From: Vacuolonema iberomarrocanum LEGE 07170
GTDB taxonomy: Bacteria > Cyanobacteriota > Cyanobacteriia > Elainellales > Elainellaceae
Direction of reading: 5' to 3'
DNA: 28,524 nucleotides
Assembly: GCF_015207365.1 (NCBI RefSeq)
Contig: NZ_JADEXA010000076.1
Coordinates: 1-28,524, forward strand
Positions 5,750 to 18,656 of the stretch are shown in pieces (positions within the stretch are counted from its first letter, which is position 1; each line of letters begins with the position of its first letter). The notes beneath the pieces are model-generated. The model was given only the letters and a program-made list of their open reading frames with translations, did no database searches and was not told the DNA's origin. A program made the translations under genes and the position numbers.

Positions 5750-5776
5750 TCCCAATTCTATGCAAGCCAAAATCAC

Positions 5777-5821
5777 ATCATTGTTTAAAATCTTTGCGGC
5801 GCAAGGGTTTTAAACAATGAT
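5777..5821 (+). terminator. 45-nt palindromic stem-loop between convergent genes (member of a repeat family, see 28273..28321)
   Basis: ATCATTGTTTAAAATCTTTGC-GGC-GCAAGGGTTTTAAACAATGAT. It is fully paired on the + strand if two G-U pairs are allowed. It starts 28 nt after the malic enzyme stop. Confidence 0.55.
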
Positions 5822-5863
5822 TTGGAATGGGTTCTTGGCGAATTGATATAAGTCGGTTGTTGG

Positions 5864-6121
5864 TCAGGGTTGCTGCTCTTCGTCCGGCAAGCGATCTTCC
5901 TCCTGTCGCTGCACATATAGACTGGTGCCCGGAATCCGCCCTGACCAATAGAGATAGAGGAAGTAAACACTTGCCCCGACCTGAATGGGCAAAAGTATTC
6001 CCAAACTCTTCCACAAAAAATTCACATCCAGCGTATGAAAAGCATGGGTGTACAGCGCACTGCCACCAATGATCAAAAGCGCCAGCATCACCCGTCTGGG
6101 TTTACGAAGAAAAGAAGCCAC
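5864..6121 (-). CDS. small two-helix membrane protein, hypothetical
   Basis: 85-aa ORF with two hydrophobic stretches (VMLALLIIGGSALY, ILLPIQVGASVYFLYLYW) and an acidic tail. The start at 6121 is GTG; an in-frame ATG is at 6088. Confidence 0.45.
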   Translation of the reverse strand: MASFLRKPRRVMLALLIIGGSALYTHAFHTLDVNFLWKSLGILLPIQVGASVYFLYLYWSGRIPGTSLYVQRQEEDRLPDEEQQP

Positions 6122-6153
6122 AGAACCTCACCAGAACGGCCTACGTTATCTCT

Positions 6154-6264
6154 CTGAGTACAGGACAAAAACCAGATAATTCTTGATTTTGGGTGGCACG
6201 GGTATTGCCTGCGCCACCCAAAATCAAGAATTTTAGCAAGGTTTTATTTTTGTCCTGTACTTAG
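6154..6264. mobile_element. 111-bp MITE-like element with 18-bp terminal inverted repeats and 9-bp target-site duplication
   Basis: TIRs are CTGAGTACAGGACAAAAA (6154-6171) and TTTTTGTCCTGTACTTAG (6247-6264), matching at 17/18 positions. The direct repeat GTTATCTCT flanks the element at 6145-6153 and 6265-6273. An internal perfect 20-bp inverted repeat is AATTCTTGATTTTGGGTGGC (6178-6197) / GCCACCCAAAATCAAGAATT (6213-6232). Confidence 0.65.
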
Positions 6265-6734
6265 GTTATCTCTATTGCATGAACTCAACTAGGGTTTAAG
6301 GCGATCGAGCGACTATACGCAACAAACGCAGCAGCAATAGCAACAAGAAACTAATTGTAAATATTCATATTAATTTTTATATCTTTTATCTTGACTATTT
6401 AGTAATTATCTTGAGTCTCTTGGTCTAAGATTTGACGCCTATTAAATAATTAAGATTCCGTTGTAGGGCAAAGGCTTAAATGATTAGATCAAGTAAACCC
6501 AAGAGCGCTCGCTTGTCTAGGTCTCCTTATGTCATTGATTTTGCATAAATTTCAGTTGACATAACGAAAAAAGGGTGCAAGCCGAAAGATTTTTTTTAGA
6601 TTCTTTAGACATCATTTCTGATTACAATACCCTGTGCTACGATCAGTCCAGATTTAGTTTCGGTTGTGTAATTCGTTTTTCAGAAACGTCTCTCCGAACT
6701 TAACTCTCTACAATATGTTTTCGGAGAATCTCTA

Positions 6735-7040
6735 ATGTCGATTTACGTTGGCAACTTGTCCTACAGTGTCACACAAGATGACCTGACCGAGACGTTTGCC
6801 GAATATGGTACGGTCAAGCGTGTGCAACTTCCCACCGATCGCGAAACCGGTCGGATGCGTGGTTTTGCCTTTGTCGAAATGGCAACGGAAGAAGAGGAAA
6901 CAGCGGCGATTGACGCGCTCGATGGAGCAGAGTGGATGGGACGTGACCTCAAGGTCAACAAAGCCCGCCCTCGTGAAGATCGACGTTCCTCTGGCGGCGG
7001 TGGTTGGCAGGGTAGAGGAGGTTCTTCTCGGCGGTTCTAA
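6735..7040 (+). CDS. rbp: RRM-type RNA-binding protein with Gly-rich C-terminus (cyanobacterial Rbp class)
   Basis: RNP2 IYVGNL and RNP1 RGFAFVEM, with a C-terminal SSGGGGWQGRGGSS tail. ATG is preceded by GGAGA. Confidence 0.95.
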   Translation: MSIYVGNLSYSVTQDDLTETFAEYGTVKRVQLPTDRETGRMRGFAFVEMATEEEETAAIDALDGAEWMGRDLKVNKARPREDRRSSGGGGWQGRGGSSRRF

Positions 7041-7158
7041 GGCAATCCACACTCGGCTCTAGCCGAGCACGTTTATAGTCAAAGGGGGCGAACATTTCTT
7101 CTCAGTAAGTGATTTTCGCCTCACCTCTTCGATCAATTCAAATATATAAGGAGACAAC

Positions 7159-7347
7159 ATGGCTCAAGTCATTCCTGGTGAAGGTGAAGGAATTGAGTCA
7201 ACGTTGCGCCGCTTTAAGCGAGAAGTTTCTAAGGCGGGGATTTTTCCTGACATGAGAAAAAATCGCCATTTTGAGACTCCCATTGAAAAGCGTAAGCGTA
7301 AGGCGATCGCTAAGCAAAAGCAGCGCAAAAGAAGGTTTCGCAACTAG
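7159..7347 (+). CDS. rpsU: 30S ribosomal protein S21
   Basis: 62-aa basic protein: ..[33 protein letters not shown]... AAGGAG lies 6 nt upstream of the ATG. The rbp-rpsU linkage is a known cyanobacterial arrangement. Confidence 0.95.
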
Positions 7348-7349
7348 TG

Positions 7350-7378
7350 AAGTGCTTGGCTAATTCAGCCAAGCACTT
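7350..7378 (+). terminator. stem-loop directly after the rpsU stop
   Basis: AAGTGCTTGGCT-aattc-AGCCAAGCACTT, a 12-bp perfect stem. The following tract is only weakly T-rich. Confidence 0.55.
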
Positions 7379-7564
7379 TAGCATTCAGGCGATTTCTAAA
7401 GGCATCCCAAAGCATCACAAGTCGGAACATCGTAGTTCAACTATGTGTTATCTCCACCGTTTTGGAGACGCCTAAGGATATCGTCTTTGATTCTTGTAAA
7501 ACTTGCTTGACCGTAAATCGCTTCCCATTTCTCCCTCCAACCCATTACTCCTACCTAAAACCTG

Positions 7565-7864
7565 ATGAATACCAAAGAGCTTTGTAGCCGTTATGCAGCC
7601 GGTCAAAGGGATTTTAGAAACCTGAATCTGATTGCAGCAAACTTGAGAAACCTCAATCTAAGTGGTGCAAACTTCAGTGGATCTAACTTGACCAAAGCGA
7701 ATCTCACCCGAACCAATCTAAGCCGTGCTAATTTGACTGGGGCTGTATTAGCAGGAGCAAATCTGACCGAAACAAACTTGCTTCAAGCTAATCTAACCAA
7801 CGCAGATTTGAGCGAAACGAATCTGGCCGATGCTCGTACTAAAGGTGTTCGGCAAGCAGGTTAG
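7565..7864 (+). CDS. pentapeptide repeat protein
   Basis: Continuous A(D/N)LxX repeats: NLSGANFSGSNLTKANLTRTNLSRANLTGAVLAGANLTETNLLQANLTNADLSETNL. Confidence 0.85.
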   Translation: MNTKELCSRYAAGQRDFRNLNLIAANLRNLNLSGANFSGSNLTKANLTRTNLSRANLTGAVLAGANLTETNLLQANLTNADLSETNLADARTKGVRQAG

Positions 7865-7873
7865 TTAGGCTGA

Positions 7874-8353
7874 CTACAAATCAAAGCGATAGCGGATGGC
7901 TCCTGTTACCGGATCGTTTGTCGTCTCCACGTACCCCAAGCGCTCCGCTTCATAGAGCAATTCCCGTAACTGCGCTGCGTCTAACTCTGTAGAAAGTGCC
8001 GCCTGCGCAGGTGAAAGAATCCCTCCATATTCATGAGCAGCCCGAAGTAATTTCTGCATGGGGCTGCTCTCTTGTGTTGGGCGTGGAGCTTCTACAACTC
8101 GAGACTGAGCAATCACTGGCATGATCACAGGGTTCATGCCGCCTTGTAACCGCAAAAGCTCCTGATTCCGCTGATCAACCATTCCAGGAATTAAGAATAG
8201 GTCAATGAGCTGCCCAAAGCCCACAATACCAAACGTAAAAAGATAAATAACCCCGCTCAGAATTCGTCCAGTGTACAGCCGATGAATGCCACAAACTCCA
8301 AAGATACTTAAAGCCCAAAGGAGATAAGCCGTCGGATAATTGACTCTCTGCAT
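7874..8353 (-). CDS. TM2 domain-containing membrane protein
   Basis: TM2-like hairpin: YLLWALSIFGVCGIHRLYTGRILSGVIYLFTFGIVGFGQLIDLFLIP. The ORF-track start at 8365 is GTG; the first ATG is at 8353. Confidence 0.75.
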   Translation of the reverse strand: MQRVNYPTAYLLWALSIFGVCGIHRLYTGRILSGVIYLFTFGIVGFGQLIDLFLIPGMVDQRNQELLRLQGGMNPVIMPVIAQSRVVEAPRPTQESSPMQKLLRAAHEYGGILSPAQAALSTELDAAQLRELLYEAERLGYVETTNDPVTGAIRYRFDL

Positions 8354-8504
8354 GTTAAATTGCACCGTTAAACGTAAATTCTATCCTATTCAATTTATTC
8401 AACATTTGGGCGATATTTGAGCAGAGAATTACAATTTTTCAATTTGTAAATATCTCGCTAGGCCGTACAGCAAGGGGCTTTTATATTCACCCAGCTGACC
8501 TAGC

Positions 8505-8589
8505 CTATAGCGATCTCAAATGATATGTGAAATCGGATGTGAAAGGTGGGCACAGCCCACCTTTCACATCCGATTTCGGATTGCTATAG
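8505..8589. repeat. 85-bp nested palindromic element with a 23-bp perfect stem
   Basis: GAAATCGGATGTGAAAGGTGGGC (8529-8551) - aca - GCCCACCTTTCACATCCGATTTC (8555-8577). Outer arms are CTATAGCGATC (8505-8515) and GATTGCTATAG (8579-8589), matching at 10/11 positions. Confidence 0.8.
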
Positions 8590-8640
8590 AAGGATATAAA
8601 CAATCTGCATAGAGCCCTAAAAGACGACAATAGCAGGAAC

Positions 8641-8669
8641 AAAAAAAGGTTGGTAGAGATCTACCAACC
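8641..8669 (-). terminator. rho-independent terminator for the 8718..9374 gene
   Basis: GGTTGGTAG-agat-CTACCAACC (8648-8669), followed on the minus strand by T7 (A7 at 8641-8647 on +). It lies 49 nt past the stop. Confidence 0.65.
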
Positions 8670-8717
8670 TCACAGAAACAGGTAAAAGCTTCTGCTTAGA
8701 TGCACAGAGCTATCTAG

Positions 8718-9374
8718 TTAGATGCCAGCTCTATCCGATGCAGGCAATCCGACAATATCGTCGAACGCAGCAGCCAATGCACAGCTTGATAGTGGAATCG
8801 TGAATAGTAAACCAACACCTAGCAGTAGAGCCCCACCTACATTGATCAGAGCTAGCAAAATAAGAAAGATGAAAAAGGAAAACCAGTTGCGTGAAATGAT
8901 CTTACGACTGGACTCCATCGCTTCCCAAAAGTCAAAATTCCGTCCGACGACAAATGCTACTGAAAAGCTGTAGGCAACAGCTAGAAAAATACCTGGAATG
9001 ATCAGCAAAATCAATCCGAGTAATACAAAAATTCCAACCAGTAGACTTGTGAGAAAAATAGGTAAAAAACTATTAAACCCACGGAAGAAGTCGCCAAACT
9101 CTGTGGATTGTCGCTTGATAATTTTGAATGCAACGATTAAGAAGCCTGCCGATAAAGCTGGGCTGATGACATTTACAACAGCATTCACCAACGGCAACAA
9201 GCGCTCGGGCATAACAGCGGGAATGAAGGAGAACAGCAACAGGATGACAGTAAAGCCAATAAACCCACCGAGGTTTTGCTGCATGATCTCCCAGCCCCGC
9301 TGGATATATTCCCCAATTTTGACTTCATAGCCTTGCTGTAGAATTGAATCTACGCTTTTTTCACCGGAATACAT
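8718..9374 (-). CDS. multi-pass integral membrane protein, hypothetical
   Basis: 218 aa with about 5-6 hydrophobic segments. ATG is preceded by GGAG. Family not recognised with confidence. Confidence 0.7.
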   Translation of the reverse strand: MYSGEKSVDSILQQGYEVKIGEYIQRGWEIMQQNLGGFIGFTVILLLFSFIPAVMPERLLPLVNAVVNVISPALSAGFLIVAFKIIKRQSTEFGDFFRGFNSFLPIFLTSLLVGIFVLLGLILLIIPGIFLAVAYSFSVAFVVGRNFDFWEAMESSRKIISRNWFSFFIFLILLALINVGGALLLGVGLLFTIPLSSCALAAAFDDIVGLPASDRAGI

Positions 9375-9536
9375 ACGAAGAGGTTGCTCCTAAAACGCCA
9401 GAGAGATTTTTCAGGTAAAGTTTTGCACCTTTAACACTGGTCGATCGTACAAGACGTGATTCCAGAATTCATGAATCGGTAACAATCTCTAAAGAAAATT
9501 TTCGATGCTTCGCACAGAAAACTCTTGATACTTAAC

Positions 9537-10502
9537 TTAATATTGATAGGTTTTATTGAGACGGCTAACTAGGTATTCTCCAGCAAGAATTGGAGCATAA
9601 AGCGGTGGGTTTTGAGCATCCTGGCAACTGGGTAAACAGGCGATTTCGGTATCGGGATTGGCATCGCAGAAGAACACCACTGTATGGCGCGATCGCCCTG
9701 CACTGGTTCCCGGCGGAAAACAAACCCGATGAACTGTGGAACGATAATGGTGGTTGGTCCAGCGTTCCATCAAGTCACCCAAATTGACAAGCAGGGTTCC
9801 AGGTATGGGCGGTGCGGCCATCCACTCTCCACTGAGGGTTTGCACCTCTAGCCCACCGCTATTGTCTTGGGCAAGGAGGGTGATGGTGCCATAGTCGGTA
9901 TGTTCTCCCGCACGAATCTGGTTTACATCCAGCACGTTGGGTAGTGGCGGATAGTGCAGGAAACGGAGGGTGAACGGTTGCTGATCATGGCGTTGCACGA
10001 AGAAGTCTTCTGGAAGGTCGAGGGCGATCGCCAATCCCCGAAACACGCGATTCGCCACAGCAGAAAAGGCTGAAAATCCTGCCAGTACTGTCTCTCGGAA
10101 CTGGGGAAGCGCCTCCGGGTAGGCATTCTTGGGAGCGTCTGGTTCATCCCGCTCACAACCAAGGTTGTAGGTTTCTTTATAGTCGGTGGGGCGATCGGGG
10201 TTCAGCTTCTCTCGTCCCAGTTGCCCATAGCCCCGGTTGCTACGAGCCGTCGTCCAGGCACTCGCTTGCTTTTGCTCTAGGGGCAAGTCAAAGAAAGCAC
10301 GGCATTGCTCGAAGAGGGCATCGAGTTGGGTTTGCGACAAGCCATGTCCCCGCAGGTAGAAGAACCCAGTGTAGCGTGAGGCATTATCGATTTGCTGGGC
10401 GATCGCCCGTCGTGCTGTGGCATCTCGGTCAAAATCACTCAAGTCAATAATCGGTAGAGCGGGTTGAGCAATTGGTTCTTCGACAATAGTGGGTAGATGC
10501 AT
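9537..10502 (-). CDS. 2-oxoglutarate/Fe(II)-dependent oxygenase (isopenicillin N synthase-like family)
   Basis: HxD...H facial triad (GEHTDYGTITLL, STVHRV) and RHTVVFF. The N-terminal non-haem dioxygenase region is IDLSDF....A..I..A....GFFYL..HG. Confidence 0.9.
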   Translation of the reverse strand: MHLPTIVEEPIAQPALPIIDLSDFDRDATARRAIAQQIDNASRYTGFFYLRGHGLSQTQLDALFEQCRAFFDLPLEQKQASAWTTARSNRGYGQLGREKLNPDRPTDYKETYNLGCERDEPDAPKNAYPEALPQFRETVLAGFSAFSAVANRVFRGLAIALDLPEDFFVQRHDQQPFTLRFLHYPPLPNVLDVNQIRAGEHTDYGTITLLAQDNSGGLEVQTLSGEWMAAPPIPGTLLVNLGDLMERWTNHHYRSTVHRVCFPPGTSAGRSRHTVVFFCDANPDTEIACLPSCQDAQNPPLYAPILAGEYLVSRLNKTYQY

Positions 10503-11481: not shown

Positions 11482-11574
11482 TGCGTCAAATCTGCGACTT
11501 CTCCTAACAACTGCAGTAGAGAGAATTGTCAGCCTCCAATAATTCGTAAGTTAGTTTTGTGTGGACGGAAAGAG

Positions 11575-11955
11575 ATGACTGAGGAAAGGGTCGGAGGAAT
11601 TATTTTTGGTGGGGCGATCGCCACCGACGATTTTCACACCCGCGACATCAATTCAGCCGTGGGGGTTGGGCTATTCGCGTCGCGCCACTTCAACCCAGGC
11701 GAAGACATTTATCCCTTTGACTACTGGTCACGTGACCTCATGCCCATGCATGTCACCAACCATTCCTGTGATGCCAACGGCGTCTTCAACGAAGCAGGAA
11801 TGCTCGTAGCCGTGCGAGATATTGAACCAGGCGAAGAAATCACTTTCAACTATTTGAAAACCCGCATCCCAGCTTCGCCTTGGAATTTCAAATGCCAGTG
11901 CGGAGCGGCAAACTGTGTCGGTTGGGTCGATGCTCGTTCGGAAAGCGAAAAATAA
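11575..11955 (+). CDS. SET domain protein (putative lysine methyltransferase) with post-SET Cys cluster
   Basis: NHSCDANG, EEITFNY and CQCGAANCVGW. The ORF-track start at 11557 is TTG; the first ATG is at 11575. Confidence 0.85.
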   Translation: MTEERVGGIIFGGAIATDDFHTRDINSAVGVGLFASRHFNPGEDIYPFDYWSRDLMPMHVTNHSCDANGVFNEAGMLVAVRDIEPGEEITFNYLKTRIPASPWNFKCQCGAANCVGWVDARSESEK

Positions 11956-11960
11956 TCCAT

Positions 11961-13214
11961 TCACGTAAACGAGCCCCCCGGTAGCATACTCCGCAAGCGC
12001 ACCGCCTCTTCTCGCCAGCCTCGCACCAACATATCCGTTTCGGGATTTTCCCCGGCTATGCGAACCCGATGCTTGCGAAACGCCAGCTCGTTTTGTGCCC
12101 ACAGTAGATCTCTGGCAATGCGCCGCTGCCCCCGACCAATCTGACGATTTTTGAAGGGGCGATCGCTCCGAATAGCTTCATATTCCTCTGTTGTAACCGC
12201 TCCGCCCACTTCCTCCAGCAGTTCTTCGCGGATGACACGCCGCTCCCATATCCCACTGCGCCAGAGCAGAAAGAGAATCAACACAAAGAAAGGTAGGAAA
12301 AGAATCAGATCAAACAGGCTCTTTTGTATCCAAACGGTCAGGAAACCCACTTGCGGGGGCGGCAACGATTCCTCGCTGGGGGCAATGCCCTGAGCACTGG
12401 CCGCAAGGGCAAACAGCAACCCCAAGCTGTTATTAAGGGCATGCGCCAGAACGGCCAACAGCCAACCGAAAACCGGGGCAACAAGCCGCACCCAGCCGCG
12501 AGCCGTTTGCAAGGCCAGCCCAAAAAATGCACCCAGGAGGCCGCTATAGAGGGTATGCCCCGCCATGCCAAGGAGAGAAAAGCGAGCACCAAACTGCAAC
12601 CCCCAGGGCGCGATGCCAAACTCGGCGTAGCTGGAGGCGACATAATGGGCCGACTCTAGCCAGTTGAAGCCAATCCCAACCAGCGCGCCATAGATGAAGC
12701 CATCGCGCATATTGTCGAACTCGGCATTGAAGAAGATAAGCAACGCCAGAATGCCCAGCCCCTTTATGGTTTCTTCCACCAGTGGCCCTGCGATCGGTGC
12801 GCCAATCAGGAAAGCGGCGTCGGGGCCAAGGGTGTCTTGTACCAATGGATTTTGGGTCACCCAGCCGCCAATTTCGGTCAGGATATAGGTGTTGATGGGG
12901 GCCGACAACCCCGTAGCGATGACGCCGCCCCAAAGCAGAGCTGTAGCGATCGCCCAAACGGATTCTCGCTCCCGCCGATCGAGATACCACAAAATCGAGA
13001 TGGGCACGACGGAGAGCACAGCGGCGATCGCCAGCGCCATCACAAACACCCAAGCCGCATCTGGGCGAAAGCGGGTTAGCAGACCCACTAACTGCACAAA
13101 AGCAAAGGCAAAAATGCCCAGCAGCACGCTAATGATGATCAGGGCAGAGCGACGGCGGCGCAACGGAGAACCAGCCATCAGTCGGGTAACAGGCGTAATC
13201 GCAGAGTGGGTCAT
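11961..13214 (-). CDS. PrsW-family intramembrane metalloprotease
   Basis: Multi-pass membrane protein with the PrsW signatures EETIKG (EExxxK) and HALNN (HxxxN). Its stop lies 5 nt from the convergent SET gene stop. Confidence 0.8.
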   Translation of the reverse strand: MTHSAITPVTRLMAGSPLRRRRSALIIISVLLGIFAFAFVQLVGLLTRFRPDAAWVFVMALAIAAVLSVVPISILWYLDRRERESVWAIATALLWGGVIATGLSAPINTYILTEIGGWVTQNPLVQDTLGPDAAFLIGAPIAGPLVEETIKGLGILALLIFFNAEFDNMRDGFIYGALVGIGFNWLESAHYVASSYAEFGIAPWGLQFGARFSLLGMAGHTLYSGLLGAFFGLALQTARGWVRLVAPVFGWLLAVLAHALNNSLGLLFALAASAQGIAPSEESLPPPQVGFLTVWIQKSLFDLILFLPFFVLILFLLWRSGIWERRVIREELLEEVGGAVTTEEYEAIRSDRPFKNRQIGRGQRRIARDLLWAQNELAFRKHRVRIAGENPETDMLVRGWREEAVRLRSMLPGGSFT

Positions 13215-13547
13215 GGCAGAGGCGATCGCAGGGCTAAATCACACGGTATTTCCTGCGAACGTCAGCATTTTCGGCGATCGCACCGATTCAGGCAAGTTCC
13301 CAAAGGGAGGATTGTGTTTGGAGGTGTTCGTTCGTAGGCTGGGCATGCCCAACGCTCTCAATCTCTGCAACGCTTCAGAGGCTCAGAGCTGCGACTTCTT
13401 GACCTCTCGCAAAAGATAGTGTGCTTCGCTTGGGAAAGAAGTCGCAGATCTTTCTCAAGCGAAGACCCCGATTTTTGGCTGTCGGTGAGATAGAACAGAG
13501 AAATAATCATCACTCCCCAGTTTTTGTCCGCTTTGGAGGCTGTGTTT

Positions 13548-14033
13548 ATGAGCGACCTGATTGACATTGAGAAATCTATTACTCGTTTGAAGCGTCAGCT
13601 ATCGGACAAAAGAAACACTCTGGTAACTATCGCACCAGAAGAGAAAGAACGGATTCGACAGCAAATCGAAGATCTACACGAAGAGATTCAGAGATTTGAG
13701 CAGGAAAAATGGGAGATTTTAGCAGAGCAGTCAGAATCCCTGGATTTTCCTGAGCCGGAAGCCGAAACAGCGGTGGTCGAAATTGTGGAAGCGGTCGCCC
13801 AACTTGAGACACAGCCTGTCGCATATCCCGAGGAAGTGATGCAAATCCTGTGGGAAATCCGCGACAAGCTCAACGAACCGGGGCCGACCGCTGCCGGAAA
13901 GCTCAAAGGCATTCTATCCAGCTTTCCACCGTTTGTCGGCATCACGTATGAAGCTGAACTGGATACCGAGAACTTTGCCCGCCAATACTTTCCGACGTTT
14001 ACAAAACTGATTAAGGGGGCGGCAAAAAAGTAA
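13548..14033 (+). CDS. hypothetical 161-aa protein: charged coiled-coil N-half, hydrophobic/aromatic Lys-tailed C-end; candidate partner of the downstream STAND NTPase
   Basis: ATG at 13548 is preceded by GGAGG (13535-13539). The ORF-track start at 13524 is TTG. The stop is 14 nt before the NB-ARC gene ATG on the same strand. No family recognised. Confidence 0.6.
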   Translation: MSDLIDIEKSITRLKRQLSDKRNTLVTIAPEEKERIRQQIEDLHEEIQRFEQEKWEILAEQSESLDFPEPEAETAVVEIVEAVAQLETQPVAYPEEVMQILWEIRDKLNEPGPTAAGKLKGILSSFPPFVGITYEAELDTENFARQYFPTFTKLIKGAAKK

Positions 14034-14047
14034 ATGCCCCTGGTTCG

Positions 14048-17000
14048 ATGGGGTCGGAACAGGGGCTGAACTATGGGCTGAATGCACTGGGAACGACGCT
14101 GTTTGTTGGACGGCGATCGGAGCTGGATGTCTTGCATCAGAAGCTGATAGGGAGCGGGGGCGATACTCAACAGGTTGCCATTGCTGCCGCAGCGGGGATG
14201 GGTGGCGTTGGCAAAACGGCCTTGGCACGCGCTTATGTGCGAGAACAGGCAACGGGCTATCCCGGTGGCATTTGGTGGCTTCGGGTGCGCGAGGTAGATC
14301 TGGTGTCAGAAATTTTGGCGGCGGCAGCATTTTTTGGCTGGGAGGTGCCCGACTTACCCATTGATGACCCAGAGCGAAAGCAAGTTCAGCAAGTGGCCTG
14401 GTGCTGGCAGCAGTGGCAAGATGCTGCACCGGGAAATCGATTGCTGGTGCTGGATGATGTACCGGACTACAGCACAATACAACCCTTCTTGCCGGGAGAT
14501 GCTTCCTTTCGGGTGTTGCTGACCTCAAGAAGGAGATTCAGTCAACCTGTAGATCAAATAGATCTGAGAGTAATGAAGCGAGCAGAAGCATTCCGCACCT
14601 TCCGTCGATATGTGAATGATGATGAGCGAATTCGAGTAGACGTAATAACGGCAAAAGCTATTCTGAACTGGCTAGGCTATTTACCACTGGGTATCGAGCT
14701 AATAGGAAAATATCTAGAGGCTCGCCCCAGTGTATCACTAGTAATTCTGTGGCAACGACTCCAAGAAAAGCGTTTGGATGCAAAAGCTCTGAAGGAGCTA
14801 CCTGAGGAACAGGCTTACGAATATGATATTCGGGCGGCTTTGGAACTTAGTTGGCAAGAGCTTTCGCCTTTGGCGCAACAGGTAGCAGGACTTCTCTCCA
14901 TCTTTGCTCTAGCACCAATTCAACAAGACTGGATCCTGTATGCCCTTAAGGATTTTAGACAGCCTCTAAACAAGGCATTCGCCAAATTAGTCTCAACGTT
15001 CAATCCTTTTCGGAAGCGAGGTACTCCTAATCTCATACTTAATATCACTTTAGAAGAGTTGGAAAATGTCCTGGACAAGGAACTAGTACAAGGTTCAATG
15101 GTGCAACGCTTGGAACCAGGTCGCTATCAATTGCATCAACTGGTGCAAGAATTCTTAGCGGATCACCTAAAAACTAAACTAGCTATCCACACCAAGGTCT
15201 TGCAACTAGGTGTTGTAAATGCTGTGGCTCAACAAGCTAAAATCATCCCTTCCTCCCCCACTTTAGCTGACTTGACTTATCTGCAAGATTTTATTCCACA
15301 CGCCACTACCATTGCCCACAAACTTATCCATTTATCACCCAATAATGCTGGATGGTTATTGACAAGTTTAGCAGCATTATCACAGCTACAAAACCGTTGG
15401 GACGAGGCTGAACACTGGCACAAGAAGTGGCTTAGCATGGCTGAGTTTCGTTTTGGCTCTAGTCATCCCGAAGTAGCTAATAGCTTAGATAATTTAGCTC
15501 TTTTTTATCAGACAGTAGGACGCTACGATGAAGCAGAATCCCTATATAAAAGAGCTCTTAATATCTACCAGAAATATTTAAGATCCAATAGTTCGGACAT
15601 TACTAGCAAACTTAATAATCTAGCATTACTTTACAACAACCTAGCATTACTTTATTGGAGGATGGAGCGATATGATGAGGCAGAATTCCTTTATCATGAA
15701 TCACTCGCTCTTAGGGAGGGTCAGATAGAAATAGATCATGACAATATTATTACTACCTTTAGTAATCTAGCAGTTCTTTACCGAGCAATGAAACGCTACG
15801 AAGAGTCAGAAAAACTGTGTAAAGAAGTGCTACTAGAAAGAGAACAACATCTTGGATCTGATCATCCCGCGGTTGCCACTAGTTTAAATAATCTAGCATT
15901 GTTATACGAAAAGATGGAGCGCTATGAGGAGGCTGAATCATTATACAAGCGAGCTTTCACTATTCAGAATCATCATATGGGGGATGATCATCCTGAAACT
16001 GCCAATATTCTATATAATTTAGCAAACCTTTATTACGAAATGAAGCACTATGAGAAGGCGGAGCAACTGTTTTGTCAAGTACTTCAAATTTATGAAACTC
16101 AATTTGGTGACGCTTATCCCCTGGTTGAAGAGTTATTATCGCCATTAATACTAGCTTGCTTAGAAAATCAGCAATATGATAGTGCTGAAGCTTTCTTATT
16201 AAAATTGATCCAGCTTAGAAGCGATAAATTAGGTAACAGTCATTCTGAAACATTAGCTACTCGTAGGTCTTTAGCAGCCTTGTACCGCTCAGTCAAGCGT
16301 TACAGGGAATCTGAAGCCTTATATTTAGATTTACTTCAGATTTACAATATTCAACTTGATGCTGATCCTTTCAACGCTGCGACGATCCTCAATGATTTGT
16401 CTGAGCTCTACATAGTGATGGAACGCTATTCTGAAGCAGAACATCTCTTAAAAAAACTGCTTCAGATTCGAGAGAGTCAATTAGGTAACGAGCATCTTGA
16501 TATAGCTGATTGTCTTAATAAGTTAGGTTATCTGTATACTTTGATTGGATATTATGAAGAAGCAGAGTCCTTGTATCTAAGAGTACTTCAGATTAGAAAT
16601 GCCTCTCTGGGAAGTACTCATCAGCTTACTGCTGACAGCTCGAATGACCTGGCATATCTTTATAAATCAATGGGACGTTATTCTGAAGCAGAGTTTTTGT
16701 ATCAGGAGGCGCTTAGGGTTTCAGAAAGCAATTTTGGGGCTGATAGTCTCGAAATTATTCTAAATTTGAATAACTTAGCAATGCTTTTGGAATCGATGGA
16801 ACGATATGAGAAAGCAAAAACACTAACTGAAAGAATACTTTATATTCAAACATTGCACTTGAGTGGTGATCACTCTGAGACTATAGATACTCTCTTTGAT
16901 TTGGCAAGCCTTCACAAATCAATGCAGCAATATAATGAAGCAGAATCATTGCTGCTGCAAGCTGTTCAGCTCTTAGAGAAAAATCTGGATTTTAGTCACC

Positions 17001-17260
17001 CTGATTTTGTCACAGCTCTAAACAATTTGGCGGTGTTATATGAATTAACGCAACGTTACGAAGAATCTGAAAAATTTTATTTACGTGCTCTCGATATTGA
17101 TTTGACTAGTTCACCTCAAGATTGTCCTAACACTAACTCTATCCATGAAAGGTTGAGTCGGATGATACAGACTGCACTAGAAGCAGGGGAAGCAGAACAA
17201 TTGTCTGATAATTCGACCACTCAGGAAGTGTTGCGGCAGCTAAGAGAGCATTCAGATTAA
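14048..17260 (+). CDS. STAND NTPase: NB-ARC domain with about 14 kinesin-light-chain-type TPR repeats and no N-terminal effector domain
   Basis: FVGRRSEL, Walker A AAGMGGVGKTALA (about aa 50), Walker B RLLVLDDV, LLTSRRR, and GLPL-like GYLPLGIELIG. These are followed by 42-aa repeats with recurring xRY(D/E/S)EAExLY ... LNNLA(L/V)LY. Confidence 0.9.
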   Translation: MGSEQGLNYGLNALGTTLFVGRRSELDVLHQKLIGSGGDTQQVAIAAAAGMGGVGKTALARAYVREQATGYPGGIWWLRVREVDLVSEILAAAAFFGWEVPDLPIDDPERKQVQQVAWCWQQWQDAAPGNRLLVLDDVPDYSTIQPFLPGDASFRVLLTSRRRFSQPVDQIDLRVMKRAEAFRTFRRYVNDDERIRVDVITAKAILNWLGYLPLGIELIGKYLEARPSVSLVILWQRLQEKRLDAKALKELPEEQAYEYDIRAALELSWQELSPLAQQVAGLLSIFALAPIQQDWILYALKDFRQPLNKAFAKLVSTFNPFRKRGTPNLILNITLEELENVLDKELVQGSMVQRLEPGRYQLHQLVQEFLADHLKTKLAIHTKVLQLGVVNAVAQQAKIIPSSPTLADLTYLQDFIPHATTIAHKLIHLSPNNAGWLLTSLAALSQLQNRWDEAEHWHKKWLSMAEFRFGSSHPEVANSLDNLALFYQTVGRYDEAESLYKRALNIYQKYLRSNSSDITSKLNNLALLYNNLALLYWRMERYDEAEFLYHESLALREGQIEIDHDNIITTFSNLAVLYRAMKRYEESEKLCKEVLLEREQHLGSDHPAVATSLNNLALLYEKMERYEEAESLYKRAFTIQNHHMGDDHPETANILYNLANLYYEMKHYEKAEQLFCQVLQIYETQFGDAYPLVEELLSPLILACLENQQYDSAEAFLLKLIQLRSDKLGNSHSETLATRRSLAALYRSVKRYRESEALYLDLLQIYNIQLDADPFNAATILNDLSELYIVMERYSEAEHLLKKLLQIRESQLGNEHLDIADCLNKLGYLYTLIGYYEEAESLYLRVLQIRNASLGSTHQLTADSSNDLAYLYKSMGRYSEAEFLYQEALRVSESNFGADSLEIILNLNNLAMLLESMERYEKAKTLTERILYIQTLHLSGDHSETIDTLFDLASLHKSMQQYNEAESLLLQAVQLLEKNLDFSHPDFVTALNNLAVLYELTQRYEESEKFYLRALDIDLTSSPQDCPNTNSIHERLSRMIQTALEAGEAEQLSDNSTTQEVLRQLREHSD
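15614..15655 (+). repeat. in-frame tandem 21-nt duplication inside a TPR unit (NNLALLY-NNLALLY)
   Basis: AATAATCTAGCATTACTTTAC / AACAACCTAGCATTACTTTAT, read directly. Confidence 0.85.
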
Positions 17261-17530
17261 ATGAGATTTTTCAGATGGAATGAGCAGATAGAGGTTTGTG
17301 AGCATGAAATGAGAAGCATTTGAGCAGAAAAGCTGGATAGGGAAGTGAATATACCCCTGCAAGAGTAAGGTTGTTATCCAATCAATGCTTGCTCGCCCTA
17401 CGGTTCAAGATGATTTGTATGTTACGGCGGATCTTCTTGCAGATTTCGTAGGTGTGGGCACTTTTGATCGTCTGGTGCGGGCGATCGACTTGGGCGAATG
17501 GTGCCTGCGAATGAATTGTGAGCTGGTGTG

Positions 17531-18175
17531 AGCCAATCTGTTGAAATGGGTTGATGCCTCAGGGCACCTACCCGCCCGCGAATGAATGGCGGGCTAATGG
17601 GAGGAAACCCATTGAAATGGGTTCAGCCCCAGACACCAATGCGGGCAGAGAACCCAGTCCACGACAGTGGACTTAATGCGGTAGCCCGCCATTCATTCGC
17701 GGGCGATTCCCACGGATGACAGCGGGCGAATAGGAGCAAAGCCATTGAAATAGGTCGATTGTTCGAGGCACACCCCCGCCCGCGAATGAAATTGCGGGCT
17801 AATGGGAGAAAACCCATTTCAATGGGTTCATGCTGCAAACACCAATGCTGTCAGAAGCCCAGTCCACGACAGTGGACTTGATGCGGTAGCCCGCCATTGA
17901 TTCGCGGGCGATTCTCACGGATGGCGGCGGGCTAGTGTGAGCAAAGCCATTGAAATAGGTCGATTGTTCGAGGCACACCCCCGCCCGCGAATGAAATTGC
18001 GGGCTAATGGGAGAAAACCCATTGAAATGGGTTCATGCTGCAAACACCAACGCTGGCAGAGACCCAGTCCACGGCAGTGGACTTAATGCGGTAGCCCGCC
18101 ATTCATTCGCGGGCGATCTCGACGGATGGTAGCAGGCGATGGAAGCAAATCCATTAAAACGGGTTCATCCCAGCA
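17531..18175. repeat. tandem array (about 3.1 copies, period 204-205 bp) of REPIN-like units, each with two inverted REP hairpins and two further hairpins
   Basis: Forward REP GCCCGCGAATGAA(T/ATT)GGCGGGCTA at 17574, 17778 and 17983. Inverted REP (G)TAGCCCGCCATT(C/G)ATTCGCGGGC at 17682, 17887 and 18092. Inter-REP hairpins include AACCCAT-tgaa-ATGGGTT (17606-17623) and AGTCCAC-gaca-GTGGACT (17656-17673). The flanking copies are degenerate. Confidence 0.8.
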
Positions 18176-18191
18176 AGCATTCATCGGTCGA

Positions 18192-18656
18192 TTAATGGGG
18201 TTTACGCGGAATGTTGAAGAATTGAGGTTCCAGCCCACGAATTAGGGTTTGGGTGTCATGGTGGTGTTTTTGGTTTTCCACATAGGCGATCGCATCTGGC
18301 AATTGTTTCCGGCCTAATGAGAACACCCCATATTCTCGTTGCCATGCGAAGGTTTGGTCTGGGAAGGTTTTATTCAGATGGCGGGAGCTGCTGCCTTTGA
18401 TGCGTTTGACGAATTGAGCGATCGCCAGTTTGGGCGGAATGGACACAATCAGGTGAACATGATCCTCAATCCCCCCAATTGCATGAAACCAACAATCCAA
18501 GGATTTCGCTTTGGCCTGCATGTATTGGTAGAGTTCAGGGCGGATGGGGTCGGTGATTAGGGGAGTGCGATCGCCCGTCGCCCACACCAGATGATAGTAG
18601 GTCTGCCAAGTTGACATTACGCGTGCTTCCTGTGGTTCTTTCTGCAAGATGCCCAT
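18192..18656 (-). CDS. IS200/IS605-family Y1 (HUH) transposase, RAYT-like (REP-associated tyrosine transposase)
   Basis: YHLVWATGDRTP, HUH motif in DHVHLIVS, Tyr region WQREYGVFS, and YVENQKHHH. No tnpB partner. The 3' end sits 17 nt from the REP array. Alternative ATG at 18617. Confidence 0.85.
   Translation of the reverse strand: MGILQKEPQEARVMSTWQTYYHLVWATGDRTPLITDPIRPELYQYMQAKAKSLDCWFHAIGGIEDHVHLIVSIPPKLAIAQFVKRIKGSSSRHLNKTFPDQTFAWQREYGVFSLGRKQLPDAIAYVENQKHHHDTQTLIRGLEPQFFNIPRKPH

What the first reader, a model, noticed from the sequence alone, without database searches (positions are those of the whole stretch)
13282..18285. About 5 kb HIP1-free island with an abrupt composition switch inside the STAND gene (near 14.52 kb)
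GCGATCGC recurs every few hundred bp in most of the window (for example 12946-12953, 13222-13229, 13274-13281, then 18286-18293). I find no copy between 13282 and 18285. Inside this island the first ~480 nt of the STAND ORF (P-loop to LLTSRRR) are GC-rich with G/C-ending codons. This stretch even supports a 204-aa spurious antisense ORF (13914..14528), as GC-rich DNA does. From about 14525 to about 17380 the sequence becomes visibly AT-rich with A/T-ending codons (TTA, CTA, AAT, TAT, GAA). By eye this is around 40% GC against the mid-50s elsewhere; I did not compute it. The junction falls inside the NB-ARC fold, so the ORF looks like an in-frame chimera of a resident-looking NTPase head and an imported body with the TPR sensor. 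A recent transfer partly overwritten by gene conversion is the alternative. Sensor swapping of this kind would be a way to diversify specificity in NLR-like genes.
Basis: seen in the sequence. Interest (0 to 1): 0.65.

Follow-up and report, generated by a model that had tools for sequence, protein, structure and literature searches.

The report
Old mosaic NLR-like gene in cyanobacterium
A cyanobacterial immune-receptor-like gene really does switch abruptly from host-like to AT-rich DNA partway through. The switch is old and shared with a sister species, not recent, and the same locus carries unreported frameshift signals that may fuse the small upstream gene to the receptor.

Summary
No GCGATCGC occurs in 13282-18285, although there are 44 copies elsewhere in the window. 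The NB-ARC-TPR ORF (14048-17260) has a sharp third-codon-position GC (GC3) step at codon 159 (nt 14524), from 0.585 to 0.335. Amino-acid content does not explain it: the expected GC3 is 0.60.

The "island" is composite:
- a small partner gene plus the receptor gene;
- a 2.9-kb AT-rich block (14527-17425);
- a REP array beside an IS200/RAYT-like transposase.

This gene family is demonstrably mosaic:
- A cassette junction lies at about 14066.
- Paralogues in another genome break at the same LLTSR motif.
- A mirror-image GC-rich copy sits in an AT-rich genome.

However, the head and the adjacent body share the same closest relatives. Against a syntenic orthologue (MAG J06638_22), both have the synonymous divergence of the flanking housekeeping genes. 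Any chimerism therefore predates that species split. No donor was found.

A more novel point came up in passing. The small gene ends in A_AAA_AAG-stop followed by a hairpin, and the receptor lies in the -1 frame. All 6 related loci examined show this. Sister loci with a Bell-like small gene instead have a single in-frame TAG/TGA-C stop (18 of 18). This suggests recoding-coupled effector-receptor fusions.

The parts
13385..13453 (+). About 70-nt hairpin element upstream of the small gene. It marks the left edge of the variable cassette region.
   Evidence: It is also present in L006, and in 3-4 tandem copies in L051 and L053. The 17-bp stem shows G-C to U-A covariation. RNA fold -31.1 kcal/mol, z = -2.3.
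13548..14033 (+). Small partner gene ("W_up"): 161 aa, all-helical, no Pfam family.
   Evidence: 77 cyanobacterial homologues were found, and those examined sit directly upstream of NB-ARC-TPR genes. AF2 mean pLDDT is 82.5, a helical model with no significant PDB fold match. The domain also occurs naturally fused to the N-terminus of STAND NTPases. GC3 is 0.52, which is host-like.
14024..14030 (+). A_AAA_AAG heptamer, in phase with the small gene and immediately before its TAA stop. Candidate -1 frameshift site.
   Evidence: The same heptamer, in phase and followed by a stop, occurs in 6 of 6 loci of this family (window, L064, L051, L055, L062, L058). 61 of 77 homologues end in KK-stop.
14036..14066 (+). 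Hairpin starting 5 nt after the heptamer (GCCCCTG ... CAGGGGC). The ATG at 14048 lies in its loop.
   Evidence: Hairpins start 3-6 nt after the heptamer in 5 of 6 loci, with different sequences. The RNAalifold consensus has 14 pairs, 4 of them with compensatory changes.
14060..14069 (+). Demonstrable recombination junction between a W_up-type cassette and a Q-type (Bell-partnered) STAND gene.
   Evidence: Similarity to L051 runs from 13383 to 14047 at the DNA level and to about 14066 in the -1-frame peptide. Similarity to L006 starts at 14069. The TARA contig L064 (94% identical) has the same junction.
14048..17260 (+). NB-ARC-TPR STAND (NLR-like) ORF, 1070 aa.
   Evidence: Pfam: NB-ARC 42.2 bits (cut-off 23.5); TPR_12 E = 1e-99; TPR_10 E = 7e-93. 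More than 590 cyanobacterial homologues.
14048..14524 (+). Host-like 5' part (P-loop to the LLTSR motif): GC 0.577, GC3 0.585.
   Evidence: One-mismatch HIP1 (GCGATCGG) at 14113.
14527..17425 (+). AT-rich block covering codons 160-1070 plus about 165 nt of 3' flank: 39.8% GC, GC3 0.335, no CGATCG.
   Evidence: Dinucleotide signature delta* is 172 against the rest of the window; other windows give 49 +/- 13.
17571..18159 (.). REP-like array: 2.9 copies of a 205-nt unit containing inverted GCCCGCGAATGAATGGCGGGC hairpins.
   Evidence: TRF score 938, 88% matches. Inverted repeats. The four copies of the 21-mer occur only here. A related REP lies next to the homologous transposase in L051.
18192..18656 (-). 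IS200/RAYT-like Y1 transposase gene. It carries 3 HIP1 sites and has host-like composition.
   Evidence: Pfam Y1_Tnp E = 6.6e-30. NCBIfam IS200 89.7 bits (cut-off 55). The REP-associated tyrosine transposase model scores 29.7 bits, below its cut-off of 80.

Best explanation
The 5-kb HIP1-free stretch is a composite accessory locus with two parts.
1. A two-gene NLR-like module: a small helical partner gene followed by an NB-ARC-TPR receptor.
2. A REP array that belongs to the neighbouring Y1 transposase.

The receptor gene is an old recombinant.
- Its first 159 codons are host-adapted.
- Everything from the conserved sensor-1 motif (LLTSR) to about 165 nt past the stop codon carries the signature of long residence in a lower-GC, HIP1-poor genome.
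- Shown: the join sits in one of the most conserved stretches of the NTPase, where diverged alleles can still recombine, and paralogues in another genome also break there.
- Shown: the mosaic was already present before this organism split from MAG J06638_22 and has been inherited vertically since.
- Inferred: the AT-rich part was imported. No donor was found.

Later, the 5' cassette (small gene, start of the receptor) was exchanged again at about 14066, which gave the present pairing.

Inferred function: the module acts as an NLR-like sensor. The TPR array senses a ligand, the NB-ARC domain oligomerises, and the small helical protein is the coupled output.
For: - The step and block are real, sharp, and located in synonymous sites.
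- They are not a TPR or amino-acid effect: expected GC3 is 0.60.
- Homologues L001-3, and L051 at the equivalent locus of a related organism, have GC3 of about 0.6 with HIP1 inside the gene.
- Delta* is 172 for the block, against 46-127 for homologue tails measured against their own loci, and 49 +/- 13 for other windows.
- There is no CGATCG in 2.9 kb.
- The family moves between genomes. In L005 the gene has GC3 0.71 and 5 HIP1 sites, in a 47-49% GC locus with 1 HIP1 in 20 kb.
- The family recombines. There is a three-way mosaic among the window, L006 and L051. Paralogues L001 and L002 are 95-100% identical through the head, then drop to 42% at the residues equivalent to about 171-190.
- Age: synonymous-codon identity to L006 is 0.65 (head) and 0.62 (residues 201-297), against 0.63-0.70 for the flanking genes. 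L006 shows a weaker drop, 0.61 to 0.46.
- Relative divergence of the C-terminal part is inflated. Identity to P0001 is 0.39 for residues 401-470, where P0004 to P0001 is 0.61. In the head the order is reversed, 0.75 against 0.67.
Against: - There is no phylogenetic incongruence between residues 1-160 and 161-297.
- No donor or close relative of the AT-rich part was found in 5.8 billion proteins or in the genome and metagenome scans.
- The AT-rich state has persisted in two lineages with little visible amelioration. A locally maintained bias would also produce this.
- The GC3 drop in L006 alone is not significant: 60 of 500 permutations reach it.
- Paralogues from the source genome were not available.
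- The TPR arrays of homologues also give somewhat raised delta* values.
Confidence: 0.55

Rival explanations
1. The reverse direction. The whole receptor gene arrived AT-rich, and its first 480 nt were later overwritten by gene conversion from a host-adapted paralogue or allele. The conversion tract ended at the LLTSR motif.
For: - In a related genome, two paralogues 100 kb apart share a 95-100% identical tract that runs from the stop-codon linker through the head and ends at the equivalent of residues about 160-170.
- The 5' end of the window's gene has certainly been exchanged at least once, at the junction near 14066.
Against: - No paralogue with a near-identical head was recovered. The best head match is 80%.
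- The head diverges from L006 exactly as the flanking genes do, so any conversion is also older than the species split.
- The data cannot distinguish this from the main explanation.
Confidence: 0.2
2. No transfer took place. The body and the TPR sensor drift to AT in place, through AT-biased mutation under weak codon selection in a rarely expressed and rapidly evolving sensor. The conserved NTPase head stays at the genomic norm.
For: - Protein relationships are congruent.
- No donor was found.
- The low GC3 persists in both the window and L006.
- Other short ORFs in the window also fall below host GC3.
Against: - A step fits better than a gradient.
- Residues 201-297 are as conserved as the head (0.84 and 0.83 identity to L006) yet are AT-rich.
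- Homologues with equally variable TPRs have GC3 of about 0.6 and carry HIP1.
- Delta* of 172 exceeds every control.
Confidence: 0.15
3. Assembly artefact. Reads from two organisms' homologous genes were joined at the conserved motif.
For: - The step lies in a highly conserved motif.
- The related contig L006 breaks off at residue 297.
Against: - The independent assembly L006/L004 runs continuously across the equivalent of 14524 with the same protein.
- An artefact would need a second switch back to host DNA in non-homologous sequence near 17425.
- The REP array and transposase downstream are syntenic with L051.
Confidence: 0.05

Closest known systems
Cyanobacterial Bell/BASS-NLR gene pairs (Dyrka et al., bioRxiv 10.1101/2020.01.06.895854; Bab/Agp, bioRxiv 10.1101/2024.11.07.622273)
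   Same: A small helical-protein gene lies directly upstream of an NB-ARC-TPR receptor and is probably co-transcribed with it. The receptor's closest homologues (L001-3, L006-L023) do have a Bell-like small gene with a Q/N/G-rich C-terminal motif.
   Different: - The window's small gene is an unrelated family.
- I saw no motif shared between its C-terminus and the receptor's N-terminus.
- In the Bell-like relatives the receptor side also lacks the motif. The two ORFs are instead separated by a single in-frame TAG/TGA-C stop.
- Neither paper mentions readthrough or frameshifting.
HIP1-poor, codon-atypical xenologous genes and islands in cyanobacteria (Delaye et al. 2011, PMC3025956; Elhai et al. 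2012, PMC3497702)
   Same: HIP1 scarcity combined with unusual codon usage is an established signal of foreign origin. The AT-rich block meets both criteria.
   Different: - The boundary lies inside an ORF rather than between genes.
- The locus is shared and syntenic with a sister species, so the event is not recent.
- There is no tRNA, integrase or flanking direct repeat.
dnaX and IS3 OrfA/OrfAB -1 programmed frameshifting at A_AAA_AAG (Atkins et al. 2016, PMC5009743)
   Same: The heptamer is identical and in phase, a hairpin follows after 5 nt, and the downstream ORF is in the -1 frame. This would yield a short product plus a fusion.
   Different: The host gene is an NLR-like defence or signalling module. 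The heptamer abuts the 0-frame stop codon. Nothing has been tested experimentally.
REP/RAYT (REPIN) systems
   Same: A single Y1 transposase gene is flanked by an array of inverted palindromic repeats.
   Different: The protein scores as IS200 and falls below the RAYT model cut-off. REP copies elsewhere in the genome could not be counted.
Mosaic plant and fungal NLR genes shaped by gene conversion and domain swaps (own knowledge, not tested here)
   Same: Patchwork identity among paralogues, and exchange of N-terminal or sensor modules.
   Different: This is a bacterial operon. The compositional contrast reveals one boundary, but a sensor swap as such is not demonstrated.

Membership tests
STAND NB-ARC-TPR (NLR-like) NTPase | NB-ARC domain above the Pfam gathering score, with P-loop, Walker B, sensor-1 and GLPL motifs | tested here: met
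   PF00931 42.2 bits against a cut-off of 23.5, residues 26-269. GMGGVGKT, LLVLDDV, RVLLTSR and GYLPLGIE are all visible in the translation and the alignment.
STAND NB-ARC-TPR (NLR-like) NTPase | C-terminal repeat sensor | tested here: met
   TPR_12 E = 1.2e-99 (9 stretches); TPR_10 E = 6.8e-93 (10 stretches).
Bell/BASS-NLR amyloid signalling pair | Adjacent gene encoding a Bell-domain effector | tested here: not met
   The window's small protein has no similarity to the Bell-like small proteins of L001-L006 (BLASTP E > 5) and no Pfam hit.
Bell/BASS-NLR amyloid signalling pair | Short amyloid motif shared by the effector C-terminus and the receptor N-terminus | tested here: not met
   By inspection, no shared motif links ...FPTFTKLIKGAAKK to MGSEQGLNYGLNALGTTLF. 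In the Microcystis relatives a shared motif does exist, but on the small-protein side it lies only in the -1 frame.
Recently acquired genomic island | Atypical composition and HIP1 scarcity | tested here: met
   This applies to 14527-17425 only.
Recently acquired genomic island | Absent from the same locus in close relatives | tested here: not met
   L006 has the orthologous receptor downstream of PrsW, at housekeeping-level synonymous divergence. L064 is 94% identical across the 5' part.
Recently acquired genomic island | Integration hallmarks (tRNA, integrase, flanking direct repeats) | tested here: not met
   No tRNA. No flanking direct repeats. The only mobility gene is a host-like Y1 transposase with its own REP array.
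Recombinant (chimeric) gene | Different closest relatives or trees on the two sides of the breakpoint | tested here: inconclusive
   Residues 1-160 and 161-297 are congruent. Residues 298-470 are relatively more divergent, and residues 298-1070 have no close relative. Formal breakpoint tests need full-length orthologues, which were not available.
-1 programmed ribosomal frameshift cassette | X_XXY_YYZ heptamer in the 0 frame, a 5-8 nt spacer, a downstream structure and an open -1 ORF | tested here: met
   A_AAA_AAG at 14024-14030, a hairpin at 14036-14066, and a -1 frame that is open into the receptor.
-1 programmed ribosomal frameshift cassette | A frameshift product actually made | not testable with these tools
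   Only indirect evidence is available: natural in-frame fusions (P0197, P0383, P0448) and the Microcystis motif located in the -1 frame.
REP/RAYT | Y1 transposase flanked by REP palindromes, and a protein matching the RAYT model | tested here: inconclusive
   The REP array is adjacent. The RAYT model scores 29.7 bits, below its cut-off of 80, while the IS200 model scores 89.7 bits, above its cut-off of 55.

The most novel reading that the evidence does not exclude
In this clade of cyanobacterial NLR-like loci, the small effector or adaptor gene and the receptor may be coupled by programmed recoding rather than by two separate proteins that share a motif.
- W_up-type loci, including this window: a -1 frameshift at A_AAA_AAG-stop plus a hairpin.
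- Bell-type sister loci: readthrough of a single in-frame TAG/TGA-C stop.

One mRNA would then yield abundant free small protein and a little small-protein-receptor fusion. The fusion could nucleate or recruit the free copies on activation, in the same way that phage G/GT or IS3 OrfA/OrfAB set a fixed product ratio. The window's locus is a hybrid of the two types, joined about 30 nt past the recoding site.
Probability: 0.45. Interest if true: 0.8.

Novelty: new variant of a known kind. Interest (0 to 1): 0.55.

Why it matters
Taken alone, the composition step is a clean but unsurprising example of a mosaic accessory gene. It shows that NLR-like genes in cyanobacteria are assembled from pieces with different genomic histories. 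It also shows that the conserved NTPase motifs act as recurrent recombination joints, and that such a mosaic can persist across a speciation.

The recoding signals would matter more if they prove real. They would provide a new, directly testable mechanism for how bacterial NLR-like receptors are physically linked to their effectors. They would also mean that gene callers systematically mis-annotate the N-termini of this large family: many are called from the GTG inside the FVGR motif.

Tried and rejected
- Exact-protein look-ups of the receptor and of a flanking gene found nothing on record, so the source genome and its paralogues could not be examined.
- A genome-contig scan with the single protein found no relatives. 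The alignment-based scan found L006 and 16 other cyanobacterial loci, but no copy from the source genome.
- A metagenome scan with the AT-rich part returned only one distant hit at 33% identity.
- A search with residues 298-1070 returned only generic TPR and CHAT proteins at 32-44% identity, so no donor was identified.
- Rfam gave no hit in the window, and there are no tRNAs.
- I tested whether 17261-18191 holds a remnant of a displaced GC-rich TPR tail. BLASTX found nothing; the region is a REP array.
- Promoter and terminator scans were at shuffle level.
- The fold search with the W_up model found no match at E <= 0.001, so no fold-based function can be assigned.
- The idea that the mosaic block at residues 161-200 marks a breakpoint in the window was rejected. 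There the window resembles P0001 and P0004 (about 70%), as it does in the rest of the gene. L006 and P0003 carry the odd allele.
- PADLOC and NCBIfam gave nothing specific for either small protein.

Full report
**1. Checking the observation**

GCGATCGC (HIP1) occurs 44 times in the 28.5-kb window, where shuffles predict 0.72. None lies between 13282 and 18285. At the outside density of 1.87 per kb, a 5-kb gap has Poisson P = 8.6e-5, and the next largest gaps are 2.4 and 1.7 kb.

The ORF 14048-17260 encodes a 1070-aa protein with an NB-ARC domain and about 14 TPR_10/12 units. GC3 in 50-codon windows is 0.56-0.62 up to codon 150. It is about 0.36-0.42 up to codon 475, and 0.24-0.38 in the TPRs.

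Maximum-likelihood change-point analysis gives one step at codon 159, nt 14524 (support codons 148-167). GC3 drops from 0.585 to 0.335. The step model is preferred over a gradient or a constant, and no permutation out of 500 reaches the statistic. On raw GC the AT-rich block runs from 14527 to 17425 and is 39.8% GC, against 55-57% on both sides.

**2. The step is not an amino-acid or TPR effect**

- I encoded the same residues with the codon table of the ten long HIP1-bearing ORFs of the window. This predicts GC3 0.62 for codons 1-159 (observed 0.585, z = -1.1). It predicts 0.60 for codons 160-1070 (observed 0.335, z = -17).
- The composition-normalised dinucleotide signature of the block differs from the rest of the window by delta* = 172. 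Other windows of equal size give 49 +/- 13 (maximum 72). The small gene plus head give 42. The tails of homologous genes, measured against their own loci, give 46-127.
- The CGATCG core is absent from the block. It is present once in the head, as GCGATCGG at 14113, where orthologues carry a perfect HIP1.
- Homologous genes in related HIP1-rich genomes (L001-L003, and L051 at the equivalent locus of a related organism) have GC3 of about 0.6 along their whole length. They carry HIP1 sites inside the TPRs and show no step.

**3. The island is composite**

- 13548-14033 is a 161-aa helical protein gene with no Pfam family.
- 14048-17260 is the receptor gene.
- 17571-18159 holds 2.9 copies of a 205-nt unit built from inverted GCCCGCGAATGAATGGCGGGC hairpins.
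- This array lies directly beside an IS200/RAYT-like Y1 transposase gene on the minus strand, 18192-18656, which itself carries 3 HIP1 sites.

About 0.7 kb of the HIP1-free stretch is therefore a GC-rich REP array with its own dynamics. A remnant of a displaced GC-rich TPR tail was looked for in this region and not found.

**4. Relatives and synteny**

The source genome is not in the searchable collections. Three related organisms were found.

- *L006 (MAG Cyanobacteria bacterium J06638_22; the Logan contig L004 is identical to part of it).* It is syntenic on the left, with hisA-like and PrsW genes at 84-87% nucleotide identity. It then carries a different, Bell-like small gene, followed by the orthologous receptor. 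The receptor matches window 14069-14935 at 77%, up to residue 297, where the contig ends.
- *L064 (a 749-nt TARA contig).* It is 94% identical to 13400-14150 and has the same gene pairing.
- *L051 (a 90-kb ENA contig).* It shares the window's first genes (80-84%). It also shares the small gene (76%, with similarity ending at 14047), the REP sequence and the transposase (78%). Between them it has an unrelated NB-ARC-TPR gene with GC3 0.62 and HIP1 sites.

In the receptor's reading frame, the window follows L051 up to "...KKVNAPGS.G..QG" and follows L006 from "LNYGLNALGTTLFVGRR" onward. This places a recombination junction at about 14060-14069. A 70-nt hairpin element at 13385-13453 is common to all three organisms. 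It is tandemly repeated in L051 and marks the left edge of the variable region.

**5. Age and congruence**

Residues 1-160 and residues 161-470 have the same five best relatives. The comparison with L006 is summarised below.

| Region compared with L006 | Amino-acid identity | Same-residue same-codon identity |
|---|---|---|
| Receptor residues 20-160 (head) | 0.83 | 0.64-0.65 |
| Receptor residues 201-297 | 0.84 | 0.62 |
| Flanking PrsW | | 0.63 |
| Flanking hisA-like gene | | 0.67 |
| Neighbouring 132-aa gene (11557-11955) | | 0.70 |

L006 also falls from GC3 0.61 in the head to 0.46 over residues 201-297, and both sequences are at 0.40 over residues 251-300. With only 262 codons, the L006 step is not significant on its own.

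Both sides of the step were therefore already joined in the common ancestor of the two organisms. "Recent transfer" is not supported.

The divergent block at residues 161-200 (0.35 identity to L006) is a replacement in the L006 lineage, not in the window. In that block the window matches P0001 and P0004 at about 70%, as it does elsewhere in the gene.

Beyond residue 298 the window becomes disproportionately divergent. Over residues 401-470 it is 0.39 identical to P0001, whereas P0004 to P0001 is 0.61. It also carries a 30-aa insertion. No close relative of residues 298-1070 exists in any collection searched.

**6. The family is mosaic and mobile**

- Two paralogues 100 kb apart in one JGI genome (L001 and L002) show a patchwork of identity. 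It is 98-100% in the first half of the small gene and 33-47% in its second half. It is 95-100% from the linker through the head, and 42% at the equivalent of residues about 171-190. It then rises to about 90-98% and decays through the TPRs. The LLTSR region is thus a recurrent tract boundary.
- L005 is the mirror image of the window. Its receptor has GC3 0.71 and 5 HIP1 sites, and sits in a 47-49% GC locus that has one HIP1 in 20 kb.

These observations make recombination with an allele from a compositionally different genome the most economical reading of the step. The direction cannot be resolved: either the tail was imported or the head was overwritten. In-place drift is not excluded.

**7. 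Recoding signals, noticed while mapping the junction**

*W_up-type loci.* The small gene ends ...GCA AAA AAG TAA. The heptamer A_AAA_AAG (14024-14030) is in phase, and the receptor ORF is in the -1 frame and open from that point. A hairpin begins 5 nt downstream.

- The heptamer in phase, followed by a stop, occurs in all six loci of this small-gene family that I could read (window, L064, L051, L055, L062, Microcystis L058-61).
- The receptor follows in the -1 frame in five of the six.
- A hairpin starts 3-6 nt after the heptamer in five of the six, with different sequences and some compensatory changes.
- 61 of 77 homologues end in KK-stop.
- L051 has no canonical start codon before the GTG inside FVGR.
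- A natural in-frame fusion, P0197, reads ...ALKK|VVGIAPRRIPSNLGSRGIRADSFVGRE. This parallels the predicted L051 product ...AAAKK|VTAPGS..PNNLGKRGISREKFVGRE.
- Full-length natural fusions of this domain to STAND NTPases exist: P0383 (nSTAND1) and P0448 (AAA_16 plus TPR).
- In Microcystis a RelB/ParE pair separates the two genes. There the -1 frame adds 32 residues to the small protein, containing INISQSGIGNTQNNIFNL. This matches the receptor's N-terminus, INIEQDGNDNNQNNTFNL. It is a paired motif of the kind described by Dyrka et al., but on the small-protein side it can be reached only by frameshifting.

*Bell-type sister loci.* In 18 of 18 loci the small ORF and the receptor ORF are in the same frame, separated by one stop codon.

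- The stop is TAG in 10 loci and TGA in 8; it is never TAA.
- The next base is always C. The background for long ORFs in the same loci is 19 of 99.
- The linker that follows is 25 codons long in 16 of 18 loci and is conserved.
- In 16 of 18 loci the linker has no canonical start codon.
- One locus, L010, has no stop at all and is a natural fusion.

The two papers on bacterial amyloid signalling that I read do not mention readthrough or frameshifting, and three literature searches found no report. That A_AAA_AAG is the dnaX shift site comes from PMC5009743. That a C after the stop is the weakest termination context in E. coli is from my own knowledge. None of this is experimentally tested.

**8. 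Likely mechanism**

- Shown: domain architecture, operon-like adjacency, the mosaic structure, and the composition.
- Inferred: the module is an NLR-like sensor, in which the TPR array binds a ligand and the NB-ARC domain switches and oligomerises. Its output is the small helical protein, either recruited or fused through the frameshift.
- Note: the window's pairing lacks any amyloid-like motif. This hybrid may therefore signal only through the fusion, or through its own ATG at 14048. That ATG is kept in L064, is GTG in L055, and is absent in L051.

**9. Verdict**

It is wrong on recency, and a sensor swap is unproven. Using HIP1 scarcity together with codon usage to detect foreign genes is established practice (PMC3025956), so the island itself is a known kind of feature. 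The recoding-coupled gene pair is the part that deserves follow-up.

Noticed in passing
window 14024-14066; L051 10480-10525; L055 2042-2090; L062 4489-4537; L058 4492-4600: The small gene ends in A_AAA_AAG followed by a stop and then a hairpin, and the NB-ARC-TPR ORF lies in the -1 frame. All 6 loci examined show this. In Microcystis the -1 frame encodes a motif (INISQSGIGNTQNNIFNL) that matches the receptor's N-terminus.
   Followed up: partly
L001-L003, L006-L009, L011-L014, L016-L021, L023 (for example L001 9920-10000): A Bell-like small ORF and the receptor ORF are in the same frame, separated by a single TAG or TGA that is always followed by C. A conserved 25-codon linker follows, usually without a start codon. 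L010 is a stop-free fusion. Gene callers start these receptors at the GTG inside FVGR.
   Followed up: partly
window 13385-13453; L006 3664-3735; L051 9651-9920; L053 1213-1560: A conserved hairpin element of about 70 nt (17-bp stem with G-C to U-A covariation) lies upstream of the small gene. It is single-copy here and tandemly repeated 3-4 times in a related organism. There is no Rfam match.
   Followed up: partly
window 17571-18159 and 18192-18656 (-): A REP-like array (2.9 copies of a 205-nt unit) lies next to a Y1 transposase. The transposase scores as IS200 and falls below the RAYT model cut-off. The same pairing occurs in L051.
   Followed up: partly
L005 10001-12436: Mirror case: the homologous receptor gene has GC3 0.71 and 5 HIP1 sites spaced at multiples of 126 nt. 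It sits in a 47-49% GC locus that has only one other HIP1 in 20 kb.
   Followed up: partly
window 14960-15060 (residues about 306-337): A 30-aa insertion relative to all homologues begins just after the point where similarity to the L006 contig ends (residue 297). L006 reads ...WILERV-stop and the contig stops 59 nt later.
   Followed up: no
window 5750-9500 and 1356-2051: There are other low-GC, HIP1-poor stretches (GC down to 0.35). The ORFs with GC3 well below the host norm include a HAD hydrolase (z = -7.3), a TM2-domain protein and a 218-aa ORF. The 2OG-Fe(II) oxygenase gene at 9537-10502 is absent from the syntenic L006.
   Followed up: no
L058-L061 4658-5125; L001/L003 11861-12303; L062 3411-3889 and 7055-7497: Toxin-antitoxin pairs (RelB/ParE, HicA/HicB) repeatedly sit inside or immediately next to these small-gene and receptor modules.
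   Followed up: no
P0324, P0445 (no window coordinates): The W_up domain also occurs at the C-terminus of an SNF2 helicase and of a Roc-COR GTPase with LRRs. This suggests it is a portable adaptor or effector-associated domain.
   Followed up: no
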